Assembly: GCF_056746865.1 (NCBI RefSeq)
Contig: NZ_CM163382.1
DNA: 64,000 nucleotides
Reading direction: 5' to 3' (one strand)
Shown here: in pieces, positions 19,828 through 39,503 of the stretch
Numbering within the stretch: the stretch's first letter is position 1
How the letters are laid out: each line of letters opens with the position of its first letter
The notes under the pieces: generated by a model
Seen by the model: the letters and a program-made list of their open reading frames with translations, nothing else
The model's database searches: none
What the model was told of the DNA's origin: nothing
Translations under genes and position numbers: made by a program

Positions 19828-20211
19828 ATGCGTGATATTCAGATGGTTCTTGAGCGTTGGGGAGCGTGGGCGGCTAATAATCATGAAGATGTGACCTGGT
19901 CGTCCATTGCCGCCGGTTTTAAGGGATTAATTCCTTCAAAAGTAAAATCTCGCCCGCAATGTTGTGACGATGACGCGATGATCATTTGCGGGTGCATGGC
20001 CCGTCTGAAAAAGAACAACAGCGATTTGCACGATTTATTAGTAGATTATTATGTAGTCGGTATGACATTCATGTCACTGGCAGGTAAGCATTGCTGCTCT
20101 GATGGTTATATCGGGAAAAGGTTACAAAAGGCTGAGGGCATAATTGAAGGGATGTTAATGGCATTAGATATCCGGTTAGAGATGGATATCGTTGTTAATA
20201 ACTCTAATTAA
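19828..20211 (+). CDS. quuD: late-gene antiterminator Q
   Basis: Start at [18 protein letters not shown]; recognised as DLP12-type Q; followed by hairpin-rich qut/terminator region. Confidence 0.85.
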
Positions 20212-20227
20212 TATGCCAATTGTTTAC

Positions 20228-20263
20228 TAAAAATTATTAAAAATGGGGCGTTGAGACGCCCCC
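20228..20263 (-). terminator. candidate rho-independent terminator (minus strand)
   Basis: Stem GGGGCGT-loop-ACGCCCC with a T-rich tract on the minus strand. Confidence 0.35.
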
Positions 20264-20350
20264 AAAAATAAAGGGTAATATATAACAGAAGGTTTATATA
20301 GTTAGAAGCAAGGTTGTGCTTCTAAAGGAAGTGGCTTGAGGGAGCCACTT

Positions 20351-20390
20351 ATATGTTGGGGAGGCAACGCCTCCCGCAACATATCTTTTT
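20351..20390 (+). terminator. tR'-like terminator downstream of Q/pR' (possibly bidirectional with the porin gene)
   Basis: Near-perfect palindrome ATATGTTGGGGAGGCAACGCCTCCCGCAACATAT followed by CTTTTT. Confidence 0.55.
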
Positions 20391-20400
20391 CGTAATCAGA

Positions 20401-21483
20401 TTAGAACTGGTAAACCAGACCTACAGCAACGATGTCATCAGTATCAATACCAGCTGTTTTGGTAAACTTACTATCGTCAATTAAGTTGATTTTGTAATCA
20501 ACAAAAGTGGACATGTTTTTATTAAAGTAGTAAGTAGCACCGACATCGACATACTTGACTAAGTCTCGGTCACCATGAACACCAAGGTCTTTACCTTTTG
20601 ACTGAAGGTAAGCAACAGATGGGCGCAGACCGAAGTCAAACTGATATTGTGCTACTGCTTCAAAGTTTTGTGCTTTGTTTGCAATATGGTTATTACCAAA
20701 AACGGTCATATTCTGAGTTTCAGAATATGTGGTAGCCAGATAGATATTGTTCGCATCATATTTCAGGCCTGCAGCCCATACTTCCGCATTTTTGCCGGAG
20801 GCATTGAATTTGCTCTTACCATAGGCGACCTGACCGTCAGTGCGATCTGATTTAGCATAGGTTGCACCCACGCCGAATCCTTCATACTCATAAGTAGTGG
20901 AGAAACCGAAACCATCACCATTGGCTTCAGTTACGTCAGTGCGGTCATTTTTACCCTGATACTGAGCAGCAAAGTTCAGGCCATCGACCAGACCAAAGAA
21001 GTCGTTGTTACGATAAGTTGCAACACCAGTAGTGCGACCAGTCATGAACACATCTGTTTGGGTCCAGGTATCACCACCGAATTCTGGCAGGACGTCAGTC
21101 CACGCACCGATGTCGTATGCTACACCGTAGTTACGGCCGTAATCGATTGAGCCGTAATCACCAAATTTCAGGCCTGCAAATGCAAGACGGGTTTTGTCTT
21201 TGGAAGAACCTTGAGATTCAGCGCGGTTGCCTTTGAATTCATATTCCCACTGACCGAAACCAGTCAGTTGATCGTTGATTTGGGTTTCACCTTTGAAGCC
21301 AAGACGGGCATAAGTAGTATCACCATCATCTGCATCATTAGAGGAGAAGTAGTGCTTAGCATTAACTTTCCCGTACAGATCCAGCTTGTTACTGTCTTTA
21401 TTATAAATTTCAGCTGCCTGAGCAGACATCGCCATCAGTACTGATGCAGCTACAGCAGAAATTGCCACTGTTAATTTTTTCAT
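20401..21483 (-). CDS. nmpC: general outer-membrane porin (NmpC/OmpD-like), prophage cargo
   Basis: 360-aa product with signal peptide and C-terminal ...VGLVYQF porin ending; located between Q and lysis genes on opposite strand. Confidence 0.85.
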
Positions 21484-22056
21484 CGTGAGCCCTTTTTTTT
21501 GAACTATTATTAAAAAATGATGTCACTGCGCGATAAATATTCATCTAATCAATGTGATTATTTCAAGATGTAAGTTTTGGTTTCTCGTTTAATTTGTGAA
21601 GTAGATCTCTATTTTTATCTGAACTTTTTTCTATCGAATCCTATTCATGGCTCTTGGCTGAATAAAAATAAATCTATTAGCCAATTTATATTAATGGCTG
21701 TTATTTATAAGTGCTCTATAATTTGAAGGTTCAATTTAAATTGGCTAAAAATAACGCTGGAAATTATTTGTTGGTTATTTGTTGAGATTTGCTTATGTAT
21801 TTGTAGTGGTGTTTTCAATACTCGGTAGCATTCTCGCAAATATCATTTAGTGGTTTACGTACGTAAAAAATTGGTTATGCTGTTAAGAGTGGTTACTTCG
21901 TCACACAGCTTAAACCCGCCGTCGAGCGGGTTTTTCCATTTTTTGAGTCTCGATATTAGCTGATAACCCAATACCTGAGTTATTCACTGACTCCGAGTCT
22001 GTTACGTTTCGTAGTATTCCCTCAATTTACACCCGCTTTGTCTGCGAGGTGGGGTT

Positions 22057-22272
22057 ATGAAATCCATGGATAAGTTAACAACGGGTGTCGCCTATGGCAC
22101 CTCAGCAGGTAGTGCCGGGTACTGGTTTTTACAGCTGCTCGATAAAGTCACGCCCTCACAGTGGGCAGCAATAGGTGTGCTGGGTAGCCTGGTATTTGGC
22201 CTGCTGACGTACCTGACAAACCTTTATTTCAAGATTAAAGAAGATAAGCGCAAGGCTGCGAGAGGTGAATAA
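22057..22272 (+). CDS. essD: pinholin (phage 21 S-type)
   Basis: 71-aa two-TM product recognised as S21/EssD. Confidence 0.85.
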
Positions 22273-22769
22273 TGCCTCCATCATTACGAAAAGCTGTTGC
22301 TGCTGCTATTGGTGGCGGGGCTATTGCTATAGCATCTGTGTTAATCACTGGCCCAAGTGGTAACGATGGTCTGGAAGGTGTGAGACATAATCCTTACAAA
22401 GACATAGTTGGTGTATGGACTGTATGTTACGGGCATACAGGAAAAGACATCATTCCCGGTAAAACGTATACCGAAGCAGAGTGCAAAGCCCTCCTGAATA
22501 AAGACCTTGCCACTGTCGCCAGACAAATTAACCGGTACATCAAAGTCGATATACCGGAAACAACGCGCGGCGCTCTTTACTCGTTCGTCTACAACGTGGG
22601 TGCTGGCAATTTCAGAACATCGACGCTTCTTCGCAAAATAAACCAGGGTGATATTAAAGGCGCATGTGATCAGCTACGGCGCTGGACATACGCTGGCGGT
22701 AATCAATGGAAAGGACTGATGACTCGCCGTGAGATTGAGCGTGAAGTCTGTTTGTGGGGGAAACAATGA
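22272..22769 (+). CDS. rrrD: SAR endolysin (lysozyme)
   Basis: 165-aa product with N-terminal signal-anchor-release segment; recognised as R21/RrrD. Confidence 0.9.
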
Positions 22770-23233
22770 GCAGAGTAACCGCGATTATCTCCGCTCTGGT
22801 TATCTGCATCATCGTCTGCCTGTCATGGGCTGTTAATCATTACCGTGATAATGCAATCGCCTACAAAGAACAGCGCGATAACAAGGCCAGTGAACTGGAG
22901 AAGGCGAACGCCACCATTACTGACATGCAGCAGCGCCAGCGTGATGCTGATGCACTCGATGATAAATACACGAAGGAGTTAGCTGATGCGAAAGCTGAAA
23001 ATGATGCTCTTCGGCGCAAGCTTGATAATGGTGGTCGGGTGCTCGTCAAAGGAAAATGCCCTGTGCCATCCTCAGCCGAAACCTCCAGCGCCTCCGGCAT
23101 GGGCAATGATGCCACCGTCGAACTCTCTCCAGTTGCTGGACGAAACGTTCTCGGTATCCGGGACGGAATTATCCGCGACCAAACAGCATTGAGAACGCTT
23201 CAGGAATACATCAGGACGCAATGCCTTCGATGA
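22766..23233 (+). CDS. rzpD: spanin inner-membrane subunit Rz
   Basis: Start at [18 protein letters not shown]-terminal TM then coiled coil. Confidence 0.8.
22986..23192 (+). CDS. rzoD: spanin outer-membrane lipoprotein Rz1, embedded in Rz in +1 frame
   Basis: ORF inside Rz with lipobox-like VVGC and Pro-rich segment [11 protein letters not shown]. Confidence 0.65.
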
Positions 23234-23724
23234 TAGCGATAATTTTACTCATCATCCTTCACATCTGGCTCTGTAGACAGGGTGGTGCTCACTTCTGGAG
23301 TGAATCCAGATTAAACATCTCATTGCTGATGCTTGATATTGAGCATTTTGCGCGCGGTAAGGGGCTGCGTTGAGATAAGAGCCAGTCATTACAAATACCA
23401 GGATTTAGCCTCGCATTCGCGGGGCTTTTTATTGCCATTACAAAAGCCACTTCCTACAGAGTGGCTTTGATAATGGCTTATACCCTACACGGGATAACTT
23501 AACTGATATCCCTTTTAAAGGATAAAGGTATTCAAGCCTGACACATCATGCGCTGTATCGTCGCCGTATTCCCGTATTAACAGAGACCGTAGCCCGACGG
23601 GGAACTCCTTCTGCGCGAGTGTGCGGGAATAATCAATAACGATGCACACCGGGGTTACCGGGTACACATATTTCATCATGCCAGCGAGTCCGGTTCTGGC
23701 ACGGAAGAAACCGGACGTTATGAT

Positions 23725-24135
23725 TTAGTGCGGAAATATTTGTGTAGTGTTCTGAATGTTCTCAGTAAAGAGTAATGAATTATCAAAGGTATAGTAATAC
23801 CTTTTGTTTTCGTGGATATTTGTAATCCATCTGAAAACCCCTGCTGTAGCAAGATTTTTCCTGTATTCGTAAAATGATAACTCTCCTGATTTGAATCCTT
23901 TTAAGGTGGCTTCTATAAGGCATTTATTTTTTGAAAATCTTACATTTACAACCTTACTCTGTCCTTTTATTAAAACCGTATTATCGTTTTCAAGAACAAG
24001 ATGAATATTCTCTGTGGCTAAATAGTAAATGTAATGTGAGACATTGTGACGTTTTAGTTCAGAATAAAACCAGTGATAGTTTAAATTATTTCGCACTTTA
24101 TCGAATATTTGTTTAAAAATGGCAACCTGAGCCAT
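23725..24135 (-). CDS. ybcV: YbcV-family protein
   Basis: Start at [14 protein letters not shown]; recognised as DLP12 YbcV. Confidence 0.75.
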
Positions 24136-24192
24136 TGTAGTACCTTCCATGTGATATGAAGGTACCTAGTCTGCACGATTATCTAAATTGCT

Positions 24193-24426
24193 TCAATCTG
24201 GTCTGACCTGCTTTCTGAGCAATTCAGTAATGTCACTCTTTTCTTTGTTTGCTTCAGGCGAAACTCTTTTTTCTGAGCACAGTCTTCGGCGGCAGGCTTC
24301 AATGACCCAGGCTGAGAAATTCCCGGACCCTTTTTGATCAAGAGCAATGTTAATTTGTTCAATCATTTGGTTAGGAAAGCGGATGTTGCGGGTTGTTGTT
24401 CTGCGGGTTCTGTTCTTCGTTGACAT
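24193..24426 (-). CDS. small basic protein, possible ribbon-helix-helix DNA-binding protein
   Basis: 77-aa ORF with Arg-rich N-terminus. Confidence 0.4.
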   Translation of the reverse strand: MSTKNRTRRTTTRNIRFPNQMIEQINIALDQKGSGNFSAWVIEACRRRLCSEKRVSPEANKEKSDITELLRKQVRPD

Positions 24427-24589
24427 GAGGTTGTCCCGTATTCAGTGTCGCTGATTTGTATTGTCTGAAGTTGTTTTTACGTTAAGTTGATGCAGATCAA
24501 TTAATATGATACCTGCGTCATAATTGATTATTTGACGTGGTTTGATGGCGTAGATGCACGTTGTGACATGCAGATGATAATTATTATCA

Positions 24590-24810
24590 TTTTGCGGGTC
24601 CTTTCCGGCGATCCGACAGGTTACGGGGCGGCGACCTCGCGGGTTTTCGCTATTTATGAAAATTTTCCGGTTTAAGGCGTTTCCGTTCTTCTTCGTCGTA
24701 ACTTAATGTTTTTATTTAAAATACCCCCTGAAAAGAAAGGAAACGACAGGTGCTGAAAACGAACTTTTGGGCCTCTGTCGTTTCCTTTCTCTGTTTTTGG
24801 CCGTGGAATG
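24590..24810 (+). other. cos site (cosQ-cosN-cosB); 12-nt cohesive end GGGCGGCGACCT at 24626-24637
   Basis: Sequence ...ttacg|GGGCGGCGACCTCGCGGGTTTTCGCTATTTATGAAAATTTTCCGG... recognised as the lambda cohesive-end region immediately upstream of Nu1. Confidence 0.9.
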
Positions 24811-24814
24811 AACA

Positions 24815-25334
24815 ATGGAAGTCAACAAAAAGCAGCTGGCTGACATTTTCGGTGCGAGTATCCGTACCATTCAGAACTGGCAGGAACAGGGAATGCCCGT
24901 TCTGCGAGGCGGTGGCAAGGGTAATGAGGTGCTTTATGACTCTGCCGCCGTTATAAGATGGTATGCCGAAAGGGATGCTGAAATTGAGAACGAAAAGCTG
25001 CGCCGGGAAGTTGAAGAACTGCGGCAGGCCAGCGAGACAGATCTCCAGCCAGGGACTATTGAGTACGAACGCCATCGACTTACGCGTGCGCAGGCCGACG
25101 CACAGGAGCTGAAAAATGCCAGAGACTCCGCTGAAGTGGTGGAAACCGCATTCTGTACTTTCGTGCTGTCGCGGATCGCAGGTGAAATTGCCAGTATTCT
25201 CGACGGGATCCCCCTGTCGGTGCAGCGGCGTTTTCCGGAACTGGAAAACCGACATGTTGATTTCCTGAAACGGGATATCATCAAAGCCATGAACAAAGCA
25301 GCCGCGCTGGATGAACTGATACCGGGGTTGCTGA

Positions 25335-25360
<26 letters not shown>
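24815..25360 (+). CDS. Nu1: terminase small subunit
   Basis: 181-aa product recognised as lambda Nu1. Confidence 0.95.
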
Positions 25361-29041
<3,681 letters not shown>

Positions 29042-38056: not shown

Positions 38057-38754
38057 TGCAGGATATCCGGCAGGAAACACTGAATGAATGCACCCGTGCG
38101 GAGCAGTCGGCCAGCGTGGTGCTCTGGGAAATCGATCTGACAGAGGTCGGTGGTGAACGTTATTTTTTCTGTAATGAGCAGAACGAAAAAGGTGAGCCGG
38201 TTACCTGGCAGGGGCGGCAGTATCTGGCGTATCCCATTCAGGGGAGTGGTTTTGAACTGAATGGCAAAGGCACCAGTACGCGCCCCACGCTGGCAGTCTC
38301 TAACCTGTACGGTATGGTCACCGGGATGGCGGAAGATCTGCAGAGTCTGGTCGGCGGAACGGTGGTCAGGCGTAAGGTTTACGCCCGTTTTCTGGATGCG
38401 GTGAACTTCGTCAACGGAAACAGTGACGCCGATCCGGAGCAGGAGGTGATCAGCCGCTGGCGCATCGAGCAGTGCAGCGAACTGAGCGCGGTCAGTGCCT
38501 CCTTTGTGTTGTCCACACCAACGGAAACGGATGGTGCTGTTTTTCCGGGGCGCATCATGCTGGCCAACACCTGCACCTGGACCTATCGCGGTGATGAGTG
38601 CGGTTATAACGGTCCGGCTGTCGCGGATGAATATGACCAGCCGACGTCCGATATCACGAAGGATAAATGCAGCAAATGCCTGAGCGGCTGTAAGTTTCGC
38701 AATAACGTCGGCAACTTTGGCGGCTTCCTTTCCATTAACAAACTTTCGCAGTAA
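38056..38754 (+). CDS. L: tail tip protein L
   Basis: 232-aa product recognised as lambda gpL. Confidence 0.95.
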   Translation: MQDIRQETLNECTRAEQSASVVLWEIDLTEVGGERYFFCNEQNEKGEPVTWQGRQYLAYPIQGSGFELNGKGTSTRPTLAVSNLYGMVTGMAEDLQSLVGGTVVRRKVYARFLDAVNFVNGNSDADPEQEVISRWRIEQCSELSAVSASFVLSTPTETDGAVFPGRIMLANTCTWTYRGDECGYNGPAVADEYDQPTSDITKDKCSKCLSGCKFRNNVGNFGGFLSINKLSQ

Positions 38755-38759
38755 ATCCC

Positions 38760-39503
38760 ATGACACAGACAGAATCAGCGATTCTGGCGCACGCCCGGCG
38801 ATGTGCGCCAGCGGAGTCGTGCGGCTTCGTGGTAAGCACGCCGGAGGGGGAAAGATATTTTCCCTGCGTGAATATCTCCGGTGAGCCGGAGGCGTATTTC
38901 CGTATGTCGCCGGAAGACTGGCTGCAGGCAGAAATGCAGGGTGAGATTGTGGCGCTGGTCCACAGCCACCCCGGTGGTCTGCCCTGGCTGAGTGAGGCCG
39001 ACCGGCGGCTGCAGGTGCAGAGTGATTTGCCGTGGTGGCTGGTCTGCCGGGGGACGATTCATAAGTTCCGCTGTGTGCCGCATCTCACCGGGCGGCGCTT
39101 TGAGCACGGTGTGACGGACTGTTACACACTGTTCCGGGATGCTTATCATCTGGCGGGGATTGAGATGCCGGACTTTTATCGTGAGGATGACTGGTGGCGT
39201 AACGGCCAGAATCTCTATCTGGATAATCTGGAGGCGACGGGGCTGTATCAGGTGCCGTTGTCAGCGGCACAGCCGGGCGATGTGCTGCTGTGCTGTTTTG
39301 GTTCATCAGTGCCGAATCACGCCGCAATTTACTGCGGCGACGGCGAGCTGCTGCACCATATTCCTGAACAACTGAGCAAACGAGAGAGGTACACCGACAA
39401 ATGGCAGCGACGCACACACTCCCTCTGGCGTCACCGGGCATGGCGCGCATCTGCCTTTACGGGGATTTACAACGATTTGGTCGCCGCATCGACCTTCGTG
39501 TGA
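38760..39503 (+). CDS. K: tail tip assembly protein K
   Basis: Product recognised as lambda gpK (MTQTESAILAHARRCAPAESCGF...). Confidence 0.9.
   Translation: MTQTESAILAHARRCAPAESCGFVVSTPEGERYFPCVNISGEPEAYFRMSPEDWLQAEMQGEIVALVHSHPGGLPWLSEADRRLQVQSDLPWWLVCRGTIHKFRCVPHLTGRRFEHGVTDCYTLFRDAYHLAGIEMPDFYREDDWWRNGQNLYLDNLEATGLYQVPLSAAQPGDVLLCCFGSSVPNHAAIYCGDGELLHHIPEQLSKRERYTDKWQRRTHSLWRHRAWRASAFTGIYNDLVAASTFV

What the first reader, a model, noticed from the sequence alone, without database searches (positions are those of the whole stretch)
23234..23724. ORF-poor 490-bp gap with a long stem-loop where bor would be expected
No ORF of 60 aa or more lies between Rz and ybcV. The gap contains a short hydrophobic 49-codon ORF starting at 23232 and a long hairpin (GCCATTACAAAAGCCACT-loop-AGTGGCTTTGATAATGGC, about 23436-23479). 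It may be a bor deletion remnant or a structured RNA.
Basis: seen in the sequence. Interest (0 to 1): 0.25.

Follow-up and report, generated by a model that had tools for sequence, protein, structure and literature searches.

The report
Conserved RNA hairpin after phage lysis genes
The gap is not a scar of a lost bor gene but a common, gene-poor version of the spot behind the lysis genes where lambda-like phages carry optional genes, and its long hairpin belongs to a conserved, apparently undescribed family of RNA stem-loops that marks the edge of that spot.

Summary
No ORF of 60 aa or more lies in 23234-23724, and the hairpin is at 23434-23477.

The "bor remnant" reading fails. No Bor-like sequence exists in the gap. 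Lambda and DLP12 carry a different 654-bp module (Rz 3' half plus bor) where this prophage has 23014-23548.

The gap holds four things:
- a 50-codon ORF overlapping the Rz stop (phrog_11822, Sf6 gene 65);
- a canonical intrinsic terminator;
- the 44-nt hairpin with a 49-nt conserved tail;
- the 3' flank of the ybcV-like gene.

The same sequence occurs in more than 1,400 of 5,426 complete E. coli genomes, so the region is ordinary.

The hairpin is a real structured element. At least six sequence variants (HK97, Sf6, Stx2 phages and others) keep the same design: 7 bp, a CA/GA internal loop, then 9 bp. Ten of 16 pairs covary. G·U outnumbers A·C 83 to 11, which points to the late-operon sense strand. 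Copies occur only at the edges of the variable gene slot between lysis and packaging genes.

I infer an mRNA processing or 3'-end-stabilising role. That role is untested.

The parts
22766..23233 (+). Rz (i-spanin) gene, with Rz1 embedded at 22986-23192. This is the left flank of the gap. A mosaic breakpoint against lambda and DLP12 lies at 23013/23014, inside the gene.
   Evidence: PF03245 at E 4e-29; ORF list with a lipoprotein-like Rz1; alignments to DLP12 and lambda.
23221..23373 (+). 50-codon ORF ('ORF50'). Its ATG overlaps the Rz stop and AGGA lies 5 nt upstream. It has a hydrophobic N-terminus ([15 protein letters not shown]). It is probably a small membrane protein co-translated with the lysis cassette, but coding status is unproven.
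   Evidence: phrog_11822 at E 1.8e-36, with no Pfam hit. It is Sf6 gene 65 and PGAP WP_001139678.1. 65 relatives, almost all Escherichia/Shigella (one partial Enterobacter hit), mostly 75% identical or more, with conservative D/E, I/V and Q/K changes. Codon-position signal is weak: 10 synonymous, 17 non-synonymous, 2 stops. Nucleotide diversity is very low.
23387..23395 (+). CATTACAAA, a partial copy of the hairpin's left arm and a direct repeat of 23436-23444. In Sf6-type phages a complete hairpin starts at this point after ORF50. Here the rest of that hairpin is replaced by the terminator.
   Evidence: Repeat D2; the two alternative 3' ends of ORF50 share this sequence.
23407..23433 (+). Canonical intrinsic terminator: an 8-bp G+C-rich stem with a 4-nt loop (23407-23426), followed by TTTTTAT.
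   Evidence: Terminator scan; fold. It travels with ORF50 in front of many different downstream sequences.
23434..23477 (+). The long hairpin: a 7-bp lower stem (GCCAUUA/UAAUGGC), a 2x2 internal loop (5'-CA / 5'-GA), a 9-bp upper stem and an 8-nt loop. It is a member of a conserved sense-strand RNA hairpin family.
   Evidence: structure; 96.2% of cells paired, 10 of 16 pairs changed on both sides, 0 of 500 shuffles reach this; G·U far exceeds A·C; covariance model R1 gives 58.6 bits, E 1e-13, the only family-level hit in the window.
23478..23526 (+). 49-nt tail that always follows the last hairpin of the slot (TTATACCCTACACGGGATAACTTAACTGATATCCCTTTTAAAGGATAAA). It contains a small second stem-loop at 23478-23497. 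Its function is unknown.
   Evidence: Fold. It is near-identical in about 200 loci and in HK97, Sf6, Stx2 phages and mEp460.
23527..23724 (.). Conserved spacer that forms the 3' flank of the ybcV-like gene. From 23549 it is homologous to lambda 46868 onward and to DLP12. It contains a doubtful 54-codon ORF on the minus strand (23515-23679).
   Evidence: homology. The ORF has no Pfam or PHROG hit and is not annotated by PGAP. Its frame is not kept in DLP12 and its N-terminus differs between lineages, with 2 synonymous against 6 non-synonymous changes. There is no significant RNA structure (z = -0.96).
23725..24150 (-). DUF1398 (ybcV / lambdap78-like) gene, the right flank of the gap.
   Evidence: PF07166 at E 6.5e-43; PGAP annotation.

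Best explanation
The gap is an ordinary, cargo-free form of the accessory-gene ('moron') slot that lambdoid phages keep between the lysis cassette and the packaging genes. Lambda and DLP12 carry bor in this slot. This prophage carries a different, widespread module instead. That module has a small Rz-coupled ORF, its intrinsic terminator, and then a 44-nt hairpin with a 49-nt conserved tail that marks the downstream edge of the slot.

Shown: the hairpin is selected as a structure on the late-operon sense strand. It keeps an invariant design (7 bp, CA/GA internal loop, 9 bp) while the stem sequence changes. It occurs only at the borders of this slot. Recombination joints fall inside it.

Inferred: it acts in the Q-antiterminated late transcript as a processing and/or 3'-end-protecting structure. 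It could be a barrier to 3'-to-5' exonucleases. It could also be an RNase III-type or protein-recognised site, which would explain the conserved internal loop. Either way it would uncouple the stability of the lysis and cargo mRNA from the downstream RNA. In this prophage that downstream RNA is about 1.3 kb of untranslated sequence antisense to ybcV and ynfO before Nu1. The hairpin's conserved sequence also supplies the short homology at which cargo cassettes are exchanged between phages.
For: Structure:
- Six sense-strand variants fold identically at -19 to -24 kcal/mol.
- 96.2% of cells are paired and 10 of 16 pairs change on both sides. No shuffle in 500 reaches this, and slid controls give 28-52% pairing.

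Strand:
- G·U outnumbers A·C 83 to 11 in 41 sequences chosen by a flanking anchor only, and 117 to 20 in the wider set.
- Antisense versions of two variants fold at only -10 to -12 kcal/mol.
- Most V3 copies have a C(UACG)G tetraloop.

Location:
- There is one copy in the 64-kb window.
- HK97 has exactly two copies in its whole genome, both between the post-Rz genes and the HNH/terminase genes.
- The position is the same in Sf6, Stx2 phage, mEp460/Ayreon and Kati.

Slot variability:
- Between 0 and about 3 kb lies between copies.
- Cargo includes gp49/66-family genes, two Rha types and four unknown proteins.
- Different canonical terminators or stop codons directly abut the hairpin.

Not canonical termination:
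- The tail is UUAUACCC, and first copies are followed by ACCGGAAU. The scan does not call the hairpin a terminator.

Recombination joints:
- BLAST hits break at 23432/23434.
- Mismatched basal pairs arise from mixed arms.
- One V3/V1 chimera was found.

Ordinariness:
- 3,461 of 5,426 E. coli genomes match some part, and 1,423 match at least 80%.
Against: - No transcript, 3'-end or cleavage data were available, so the mechanistic step is pure inference.
- The helix is only 18 bp-equivalents, which is short for a classical RNase III substrate.
- In this prophage a strong terminator sits 1 nt upstream. The hairpin is therefore transcribed mainly under Q antitermination and has no cargo gene to protect. 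It may be a vestigial backbone element here.
- The sequences in the covariation count are related, and part of the set was collected with a scan that required pairing.
- The near-invariant 49-nt tail is not explained by a simple barrier function.
- Older subscription papers on HK97, HK620 and Sf6 could not be searched, so the hairpin may have been noted before.
Confidence: 0.5

Rival explanations
1. The hairpin is a second, weak Rho-independent terminator. It would form a tandem pair with 23407-23433 and act as the terminator or insulator for genes placed in the slot. It would stop transcription that is not Q-modified from running into the packaging genes, or here into RNA antisense to ybcV.
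For: The depositors of phage Ayreon annotated exactly this hairpin as a terminator. Several cargo genes stop at its 5' edge with no other terminator. The tail begins UUAU. Intra-operon terminators of unknown role are common in lambdoid late operons (PMC8022706).
Against: There is no U-run: only 3 U in the first 8 nt, and the scan does not call it. First copies of the family are followed by ACCGGAAU with no U at all. Termination does not explain a conserved CA/GA internal loop or an 18-nt arm. The hairpin is often preceded by a strong canonical terminator, which would make it redundant.
Confidence: 0.22
2. The element works at the DNA level. It would be a short conserved 'boundary' sequence or palindrome kept because it is the crossover point for cassette exchange, or because it is bound or folded as single-stranded DNA by a recombinase, in the manner of an attC site. 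On this reading it has no RNA function.
For: Mosaic joints fall at or inside it. The stops of at least six unrelated cargo genes end on its first base (TA|G). There is a partial left-arm duplicate at 23387-23395. A variable upper stem over a conserved lower stem resembles attC architecture (established knowledge of integrons).
Against: Compensatory changes with a 7-fold or greater excess of G·U over A·C, and a UACG tetraloop, are expected for RNA and not for duplex DNA. The sequences have no GTTRRRY core. No dedicated recombinase travels with the element: it sits in phages with unrelated packaging and integration modules. Homologous recombination at any conserved sequence gives the same joints.
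Confidence: 0.12
3. The gap encodes an independent small regulatory RNA, either one that ends at the 23407-23433 terminator or a unit made of the hairpin and its tail.
For: A terminator with a preceding conserved sequence could give a 3'-derived sRNA from the Rz/ORF50 mRNA. There is a weak resemblance to STnc560 (19.9 bits). Prophage late regions do encode sRNAs, but at the PR' moron site (PMC4104026).
Against: The STnc560 match has E 0.65 against a gathering score of 55, which is chance level. No promoter-like site lies upstream within the gap on the + strand before 23696. The sRNAs described in PMC4104026 lie at a different locus. No transcript evidence exists.
Confidence: 0.06
4. The gap is a remnant of a deleted bor gene.
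For: Position only: bor occupies the Rz-ybcV interval in lambda and DLP12.
Against: There is no Bor-like coding remnant in any frame. Between the shared flanks the two alleles align only in one marginal 39-nt stretch inside Rz, far from bor. The window's allele is itself conserved, with its own ORF, terminator and hairpin, in thousands of genomes.
Confidence: 0.01

Closest known systems
Intra-operon terminator-like hairpins of lambdoid late operons (as annotated in HK97 and discussed for phage L, PMC8022706)
   Same: These are stem-loops on the sense strand inside the Q-antiterminated late operon, placed between gene modules. Their role is described as unknown: partial termination or a block to spurious transcription are the suggestions.
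   Different: Those are short G+C-rich stems with U-tracts and unrelated sequences. This one is a homologous family with 18-nt arms, a conserved 2x2 internal loop, no U-tract and a fixed genomic position. HK97's record does not annotate its two copies.
Phage T7 early-region RNase III sites (such as R1.1) and the lambda sib retroregulator
   Same: All are intercistronic or 3'-of-gene hairpins with an upper stem, an internal loop and a lower stem. In the known cases cleavage leaves or removes a 3' hairpin, which sets upstream mRNA stability. Sib acts only in antiterminated read-through transcripts. These points are established knowledge.
   Different: There is no sequence homology: R1 finds nothing significant at the annotated HK97 sib site. 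The helix is shorter at 18 bp-equivalents and the internal loop is symmetric. Cleavage is untested.
REP/BIME extragenic palindromes of E. coli
   Same: Both are imperfect palindromes of about 40 nt just after stop codons that can stabilise upstream mRNA.
   Different: REPs are dispersed in hundreds of copies. This family has one or two copies per phage, at one locus only.
Lambda/DLP12 bor moron
   Same: It occupies the same slot between Rz and the ybcV homologue.
   Different: The sequence is unrelated and the orientation is opposite. The bor-bearing alleles have no copy of the hairpin.
Integron attC sites
   Same: Both are a folded imperfect palindrome directly 3' of cargo ORFs, with a conserved lower stem, unpaired central bases and a variable upper part.
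   Different: There is no R''/R' core sequence, no IntI and a symmetric internal loop instead of extrahelical bases. The G·U pattern and UACG loop point to RNA.

Membership tests
bor (lambda Bor lipoprotein gene) or its remnant | Detectable similarity to the Bor coding sequence | tested here: not met
   tblastn of DLP12 Bor against the window gives no hit in 23234-23724; the best hits lie elsewhere at E > 2. blastn against the lambda and DLP12 bor segments finds nothing.
Rho-independent terminator | G+C-rich stem-loop immediately followed by a U-run | tested here: not met
   For the long hairpin 23434-23477 the tail is UUAUACCC and the scan does not call it. Related first copies have no U. The neighbouring element 23407-23433 does meet the definition.
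RNase III processing site | About two helical turns of double-stranded RNA, often interrupted by an internal loop | tested here: inconclusive
   The helix is 7 + 2 + 9 = 18 bp-equivalents with a conserved 2x2 loop. This is at the lower limit, and the published position-specific scores (PMC6212723, supplementary table S4) were not applied.
RNase III processing site | rnc-dependent cleavage in vivo or in vitro | not testable with these tools
   No RNA-end data are available for this prophage or its relatives.
Conserved structured RNA element (general criterion) | Base pairs maintained by compensatory substitutions across homologues | tested here: met
   10 of 16 pairs change on both sides and 96.2% of cells are paired. 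No shuffle in 500 reaches this, and slid controls give 28-52%.
Conserved structured RNA element (general criterion) | Strand specificity (G·U tolerated, A·C not) | tested here: met
   83 G·U against 11 A·C in the anchor-selected set. Antisense folds are much weaker.
Any Rfam 15 family | Covariance-model match at or near the gathering score | tested here: not met
   The only match is STnc560 at 19.9 bits against a gathering score of 55, E 0.65.
REP/BIME | Many dispersed copies per genome | tested here: not met
   Only one locus reaches family-level score in the 64-kb window (23434-23477, 58.6 bits sense-strand and its own 23.9-bit reverse-strand echo; other hits E > 1). HK97 has two copies, both at one locus.
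Integron attC | R''/R' core (RYYYAAC ... GTTRRRY) and an associated IntI integrase | tested here: not met
   The arm ends are GCCATTA...TAATGGC or GTTATTG...CAATGGC, which do not fit the core. The element occurs in phages with ordinary lambda-type modules.
Moron / accessory-gene slot (Juhala et al. 2000 sense) | A position where related phages carry different, dispensable genes between conserved backbone genes | tested here: met
   Between Rz/ORF50 and the last hairpin lie 0 to about 3 kb holding gp49/66-family, Rha or unknown genes, or nothing. Lambda and DLP12 have bor there.
phrog_11822 (ORF50) | Full-length profile match | tested here: met
   E 1.8e-36 over positions 1-50 of 50. The family has no known function.
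Hok-type or other Pfam small toxin (ORF50) | Pfam family match | tested here: not met
   No Pfam family at E up to 1.

The most novel reading that the evidence does not exclude
The hairpin family, with its invariant CA/GA internal loop and 49-nt tail, is a dedicated and so far undescribed cis-regulatory RNA of the lambdoid late operon. A specific host or phage factor would read it to set the ratio or timing of lysis-gene and cargo-gene expression against morphogenesis-gene expression. The same element would define portable 'gene plus hairpin' cassettes, which would explain why unrelated cargo genes all stop on its first base.
Probability: 0.2. Interest if true: 0.6.

Novelty: new variant of a known kind. 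Interest (0 to 1): 0.35.

Why it matters
For this window the value is mainly corrective. The gap is an ordinary, very common prophage module, not a deletion scar, and it needs no special annotation beyond a small ORF, a terminator and a hairpin.

The by-product is more interesting. Textbook phages (HK97, Sf6, HK620, Stx2 phages) share a covarying sense-strand RNA hairpin at the border of the post-lysis accessory-gene slot. It is not annotated and not in Rfam. If it controls processing or stability of the late transcript, it bears on two open points: how one 20-plus-kb late mRNA yields different amounts of lysis, cargo and structural proteins, and why cargo genes are swapped at this position.

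Tried and rejected
- Rfam scan of 20000-26000 at E up to 1 gave only chance-level matches: STnc560 at E 0.65 and mir-578 at E 0.61. The latter falls on the cosB inverted repeat.
- Bor remnant: tblastn and blastn were both negative.
- Promoter inside the hairpin or tail: TTGATA/TCGACA in the right arm resembles a -35 hexamer, but no -10 follows at 16-18 nt, and the scan finds no site in 23234-23695 on the + strand.
- Terminator for the minus-strand ybcV transcript: no minus-strand terminator-like site and no significant structure in 23480-23730 on the minus strand.
- ORF54 (minus strand) as a gene: no family, not kept in DLP12, variable N-terminus. I treat it as doubtful.
- Coding test for ORF50: nucleotide diversity is too low and the codon-position signal too weak to decide. 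No relatives outside Enterobacteriaceae (nearly all Escherichia/Shigella) were found.
- Dispersed-repeat (REP-like) and attC-like readings were rejected on copy number and core sequence.
- IHF-site reading of the arms: it does not fit WATCAANNNNTTR in any variant (inspection of the sequences).
- Literature: five searches and five papers read. None describes this hairpin. The EHEC prophage sRNAs (PMC4104026) lie at a different site.
- RNase III scoring with the published matrix was not possible, because the figure and supplementary table were not used.

Full report
**Setting.** The window carries a lambda/DLP12-like prophage. In order, it has:
- quuD;
- an ompC/nmpC-like porin gene on the minus strand (20401-21483);
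- essD (22057-22272), rrrD (22272-22769) and Rz (to 23233), with Rz1 embedded at 22986-23192;
- the gap under study;
- a DUF1398/ybcV-like gene (23725-24150, minus strand) and a DUF3950/ynfO-like gene (24193-24426, minus strand);
- Nu1 (24815-25360) and the large terminase.

The stretch 23200-23760 is 100% identical to E. coli 118UI. Alignment to the right end of lambda places cosN at 24626, reading GGGCGGCGACCT. The + strand is therefore the sense strand of the Q-dependent late operon. That operon runs from the lysis genes across cos into Nu1.

**Checking the observation.** Nothing of 60 aa or more overlaps 23234-23724. The largest ORFs are 50 aa (23221-23373, +) and 54 aa (23515-23679, -). 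The inverted repeat is exactly as quoted but lies at 23434-23477. It has 18-nt arms, 16 of 18 positions complementary and an 8-nt loop. Alone it folds at -23.7 kcal/mol against -6.95 +/- 2.4 for shuffles (z = -6.9).

**Not a bor remnant.** Bor from DLP12 finds nothing in the gap by tblastn. Against lambda and DLP12 the homology is as follows:

| Window | Lambda | Content | Identity |
|---|---|---|---|
| 22766-23013 | 45966-46213 | 5' half of Rz | 89% |
| 23014-23548 | no counterpart (one marginal 39-nt match inside Rz, E 0.006) | ORF50, terminator, hairpin, tail | none |
| 23549-24213 | 46868-47531 | from 116 bp upstream of the bor start through the ybcV homologue | 82% |

The 654 bp that lambda has in between hold the Rz 3' half, bor and its upstream region. 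The window has a different 535 bp there. These are two alternative mosaic modules with breakpoints inside Rz and upstream of the bor promoter region. This is not a deletion. The covariance model of the hairpin finds no copy in the lambda or DLP12 alleles.

**The window's module is common.**
- 157 phage records match it. The best matches are Kati, mEp460, Ayreon and PhiR phages, with partial matches in Sf6, HK620 and CUS-3.
- 3,461 of 5,426 complete E. coli genomes match some part, and 1,423 match at least 80% of the query.
- BLAST hits break reproducibly at 23432/23434, covering either query 1-233 or query 235-561. The terminator belongs to the left module and the hairpin to the right one.

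**The small ORF.** ORF50 starts at an ATG that overlaps the Rz stop, with AGGA 5 nt upstream.
- It is Sf6 gene 65, PGAP protein WP_001139678.1 and phrog_11822 (E 1.8e-36). It has no Pfam family.
- Its 65 relatives are almost all from Escherichia/Shigella (one partial Enterobacter hit) and mostly 75% identical or more.
- The hydrophobic N-terminus is invariant. C-terminal changes are mostly conservative: D/E, I/V, Q/K and H/Y.
- Nucleotide diversity is very low.
- The codon-position signal is weak, with 10 synonymous changes, 17 non-synonymous and 2 stops.

I regard it as a plausible small membrane protein co-translated with the lysis cassette. It is not proven.

**The hairpin family.** I used two ways to collect relatives from IMG/VR. 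One was relatives of ORF50. The other was an exact 30-nt anchor just downstream of the hairpin, which places no requirement on the hairpin itself. This gave about 200 loci.

The hairpin occurs in at least six sequence variants. All share one design:
- a 7-bp lower stem (nnCAUUA/UAAUGnn, or AUUG/CAAU);
- a near-invariant 2x2 internal loop, 5'-CA on the left and 5'-GA on the right;
- a 9-bp upper stem whose sequence differs between variants (AAAGCCACU, GAGACCAUU, AAGCCCAUC, GAAGCCCUU, AAGCGUCUA, GGAUGCAUU);
- a loop of 4, 5 or 8 nt, which in the V3 variant is usually C(UACG)G.

On an alignment of 33 distinct sequences, 96.2% of cells pair and 10 of 16 pairs show changes on both sides. No shuffle in 500 reaches these values. 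Sliding the partner by 1-3 columns drops pairing to 28-52%.

The non-Watson-Crick pairs are strongly one-sided. In the 41 anchor-selected sequences there are 83 G·U against 11 A·C. In the wider set the counts are 117 against 20. All six sense-strand variants fold into the same shape at -19 to -24 kcal/mol. The antisense strands of two variants reach only -10 to -12 kcal/mol. This is the signature of selection on a folded sense-strand RNA.

Two caveats apply. The sequences are related, and part of the set came from a scan that required pairing. The anchor-selected subset gives the same picture.

**Where the hairpin sits.** The covariance model R1 finds a single family-level copy in the 64-kb window, at 58.6 bits and E 1e-13. 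The only other hit with E below 1 is the weak reverse-strand echo of the same palindrome, at 23.9 bits. In the whole HK97 genome it finds exactly two copies, at 38661-38700 and 38856-38896. Both lie between the post-Rz genes and the HNH/terminase genes. Sf6 has two copies that flank gene 66. A Stx2 phage, Ayreon and Kati have one each, at the same relative place.

Across loci the interval from Rz/ORF50 to the last hairpin holds 0 to about 3 kb. The genes found there include a gp49/gp66-family protein, two kinds of Rha regulator and several unknown small proteins. In at least six unrelated genes the stop codon ends on the first base of the hairpin (TA|G). In other loci one of at least four different canonical terminators ends in TTTTTATT directly before it.

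After ORF50 there are two alternatives. One is a full hairpin, as in Sf6. The other is the first 9 nt of its left arm (CATTACAAA) followed by the terminator, as here. This explains the direct repeat at 23387-23395 and 23436-23444.

Mixed basal pairs, such as GCC...GAA, and one V3/V1 chimera show that crossovers occur inside the hairpin.

The last hairpin is always followed by the same 49 nt (23478-23526), which contain a small second stem-loop.

**Interpretation.** The gap is the empty state of the accessory-gene slot behind the lysis cassette. This is the slot that holds bor in lambda. What remains is ORF50, its terminator, the boundary hairpin with its tail, and the 3' flank of the convergent ybcV-like gene.

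The hairpin is unlikely to be a canonical terminator, for four reasons:
- It has no U-run.
- First copies are followed by ACCGGAAU.
- It is often preceded by a strong terminator.
- Termination does not need a conserved internal loop.

I therefore favour a role in the antiterminated late transcript as a processing and/or 3'-end-protecting structure. The closest analogies are the RNase III sites of the phage T7 early region and lambda sib, both matters of established knowledge. The conserved CA/GA loop suggests that a factor recognises it.

In this prophage the late transcript must cross about 1.3 kb of untranslated RNA, antisense to ybcV and ynfO, before it reaches Nu1. A stable hairpin just after the lysis genes would shield those genes from decay that starts in that stretch. 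This step is inference, and no RNA data were available. Phage L authors note that intra-late-operon terminators are common and that 'their roles are not known' (PMC8022706). This places the element in a recognised but unexplained class.

**Rivals.**
- A weak auxiliary terminator or insulator is the main rival. Ayreon's depositors annotated the hairpin that way.
- A purely DNA-level recombination boundary explains the joints but not the G·U asymmetry or the UACG loops.
- An independent sRNA gene has no support: there is no promoter-like site and only a chance-level Rfam match.
- The 54-codon minus-strand ORF is doubtful.

**Novelty and score.** The region itself is ordinary and widely distributed, and the bor idea is wrong. 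The hairpin family is real, well supported by covariation and present in classic phages. It is absent from Rfam and from the annotations I saw, and I found no paper that describes it. The original HK97, HK620 and Sf6 genome papers are not in the searchable library, however. I rate it a new variant of a known kind (phage intercistronic or terminator-like RNA hairpins), with interest 0.35.

Noticed in passing
window 24626-24637 (and 24590-24815): The lambda-type cosN (GGGCGGCGACCT) lies at 24626. Window 24264-24625 is 94% identical to the right end of lambda (48141-48502). The prophage therefore keeps an intact-looking cos between ynfO and Nu1.
   Followed up: partly
window 24731-24793: This long inverted repeat (GAAAGGAAACGACAG...CTGTCGTTTCCTTTC) scored as a chance 'mir-578' match (E 0.61). 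From memory of lambda, it corresponds to the Nu1-binding R sites of cosB, just upstream of Nu1. I did not test this.
   Followed up: no
window 20401-21483 (-): A 360-aa OmpC/NmpC-like porin gene sits between the Q antiterminator gene and the holin gene. This is the PR'-proximal moron site, as in DLP12. PGAP calls it ompC in the identical strain 118UI.
   Followed up: no
L206 (HK97) 1385-1625; the same in many IMG/VR loci (for example L150, L151): In HK97-type phages two hairpins of the family flank a conserved segment of about 150-210 nt. That segment has no annotated gene. It contains a 28-codon ORF (MNLLPYGKKDSLWWRTDGKTSVIAEAIQ) that reads through the left arm of the second hairpin and stops in its loop. 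It could be a small gene or a non-coding RNA.
   Followed up: no
related loci (for example L171, L157, L188, L129, L203); not in the window: The stop codons of at least six unrelated cargo genes end exactly on the first base of the hairpin (TA|G). The junction is more precise than chance placement would give. It suggests either 'gene plus hairpin' cassettes or selection for a hairpin that directly abuts the stop.
   Followed up: partly
window 23013/23014: A mosaic breakpoint against both lambda and DLP12 lies in the middle of Rz, so the 5' and 3' halves of Rz/Rz1 come from different lineages. The Sf6 record marks a 'boundary sequence' (bsq7) inside its Rz gene.
   Followed up: partly
window 23221-23380: The ORF50 segment differs at only about 0.1-1% of positions across many phage backbones, apart from two hot spots near 23280-23289 and 23340-23349. 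It is more uniform than the adjacent Rz 3' end. This fits either a recent spread or a constraint beyond coding.
   Followed up: no
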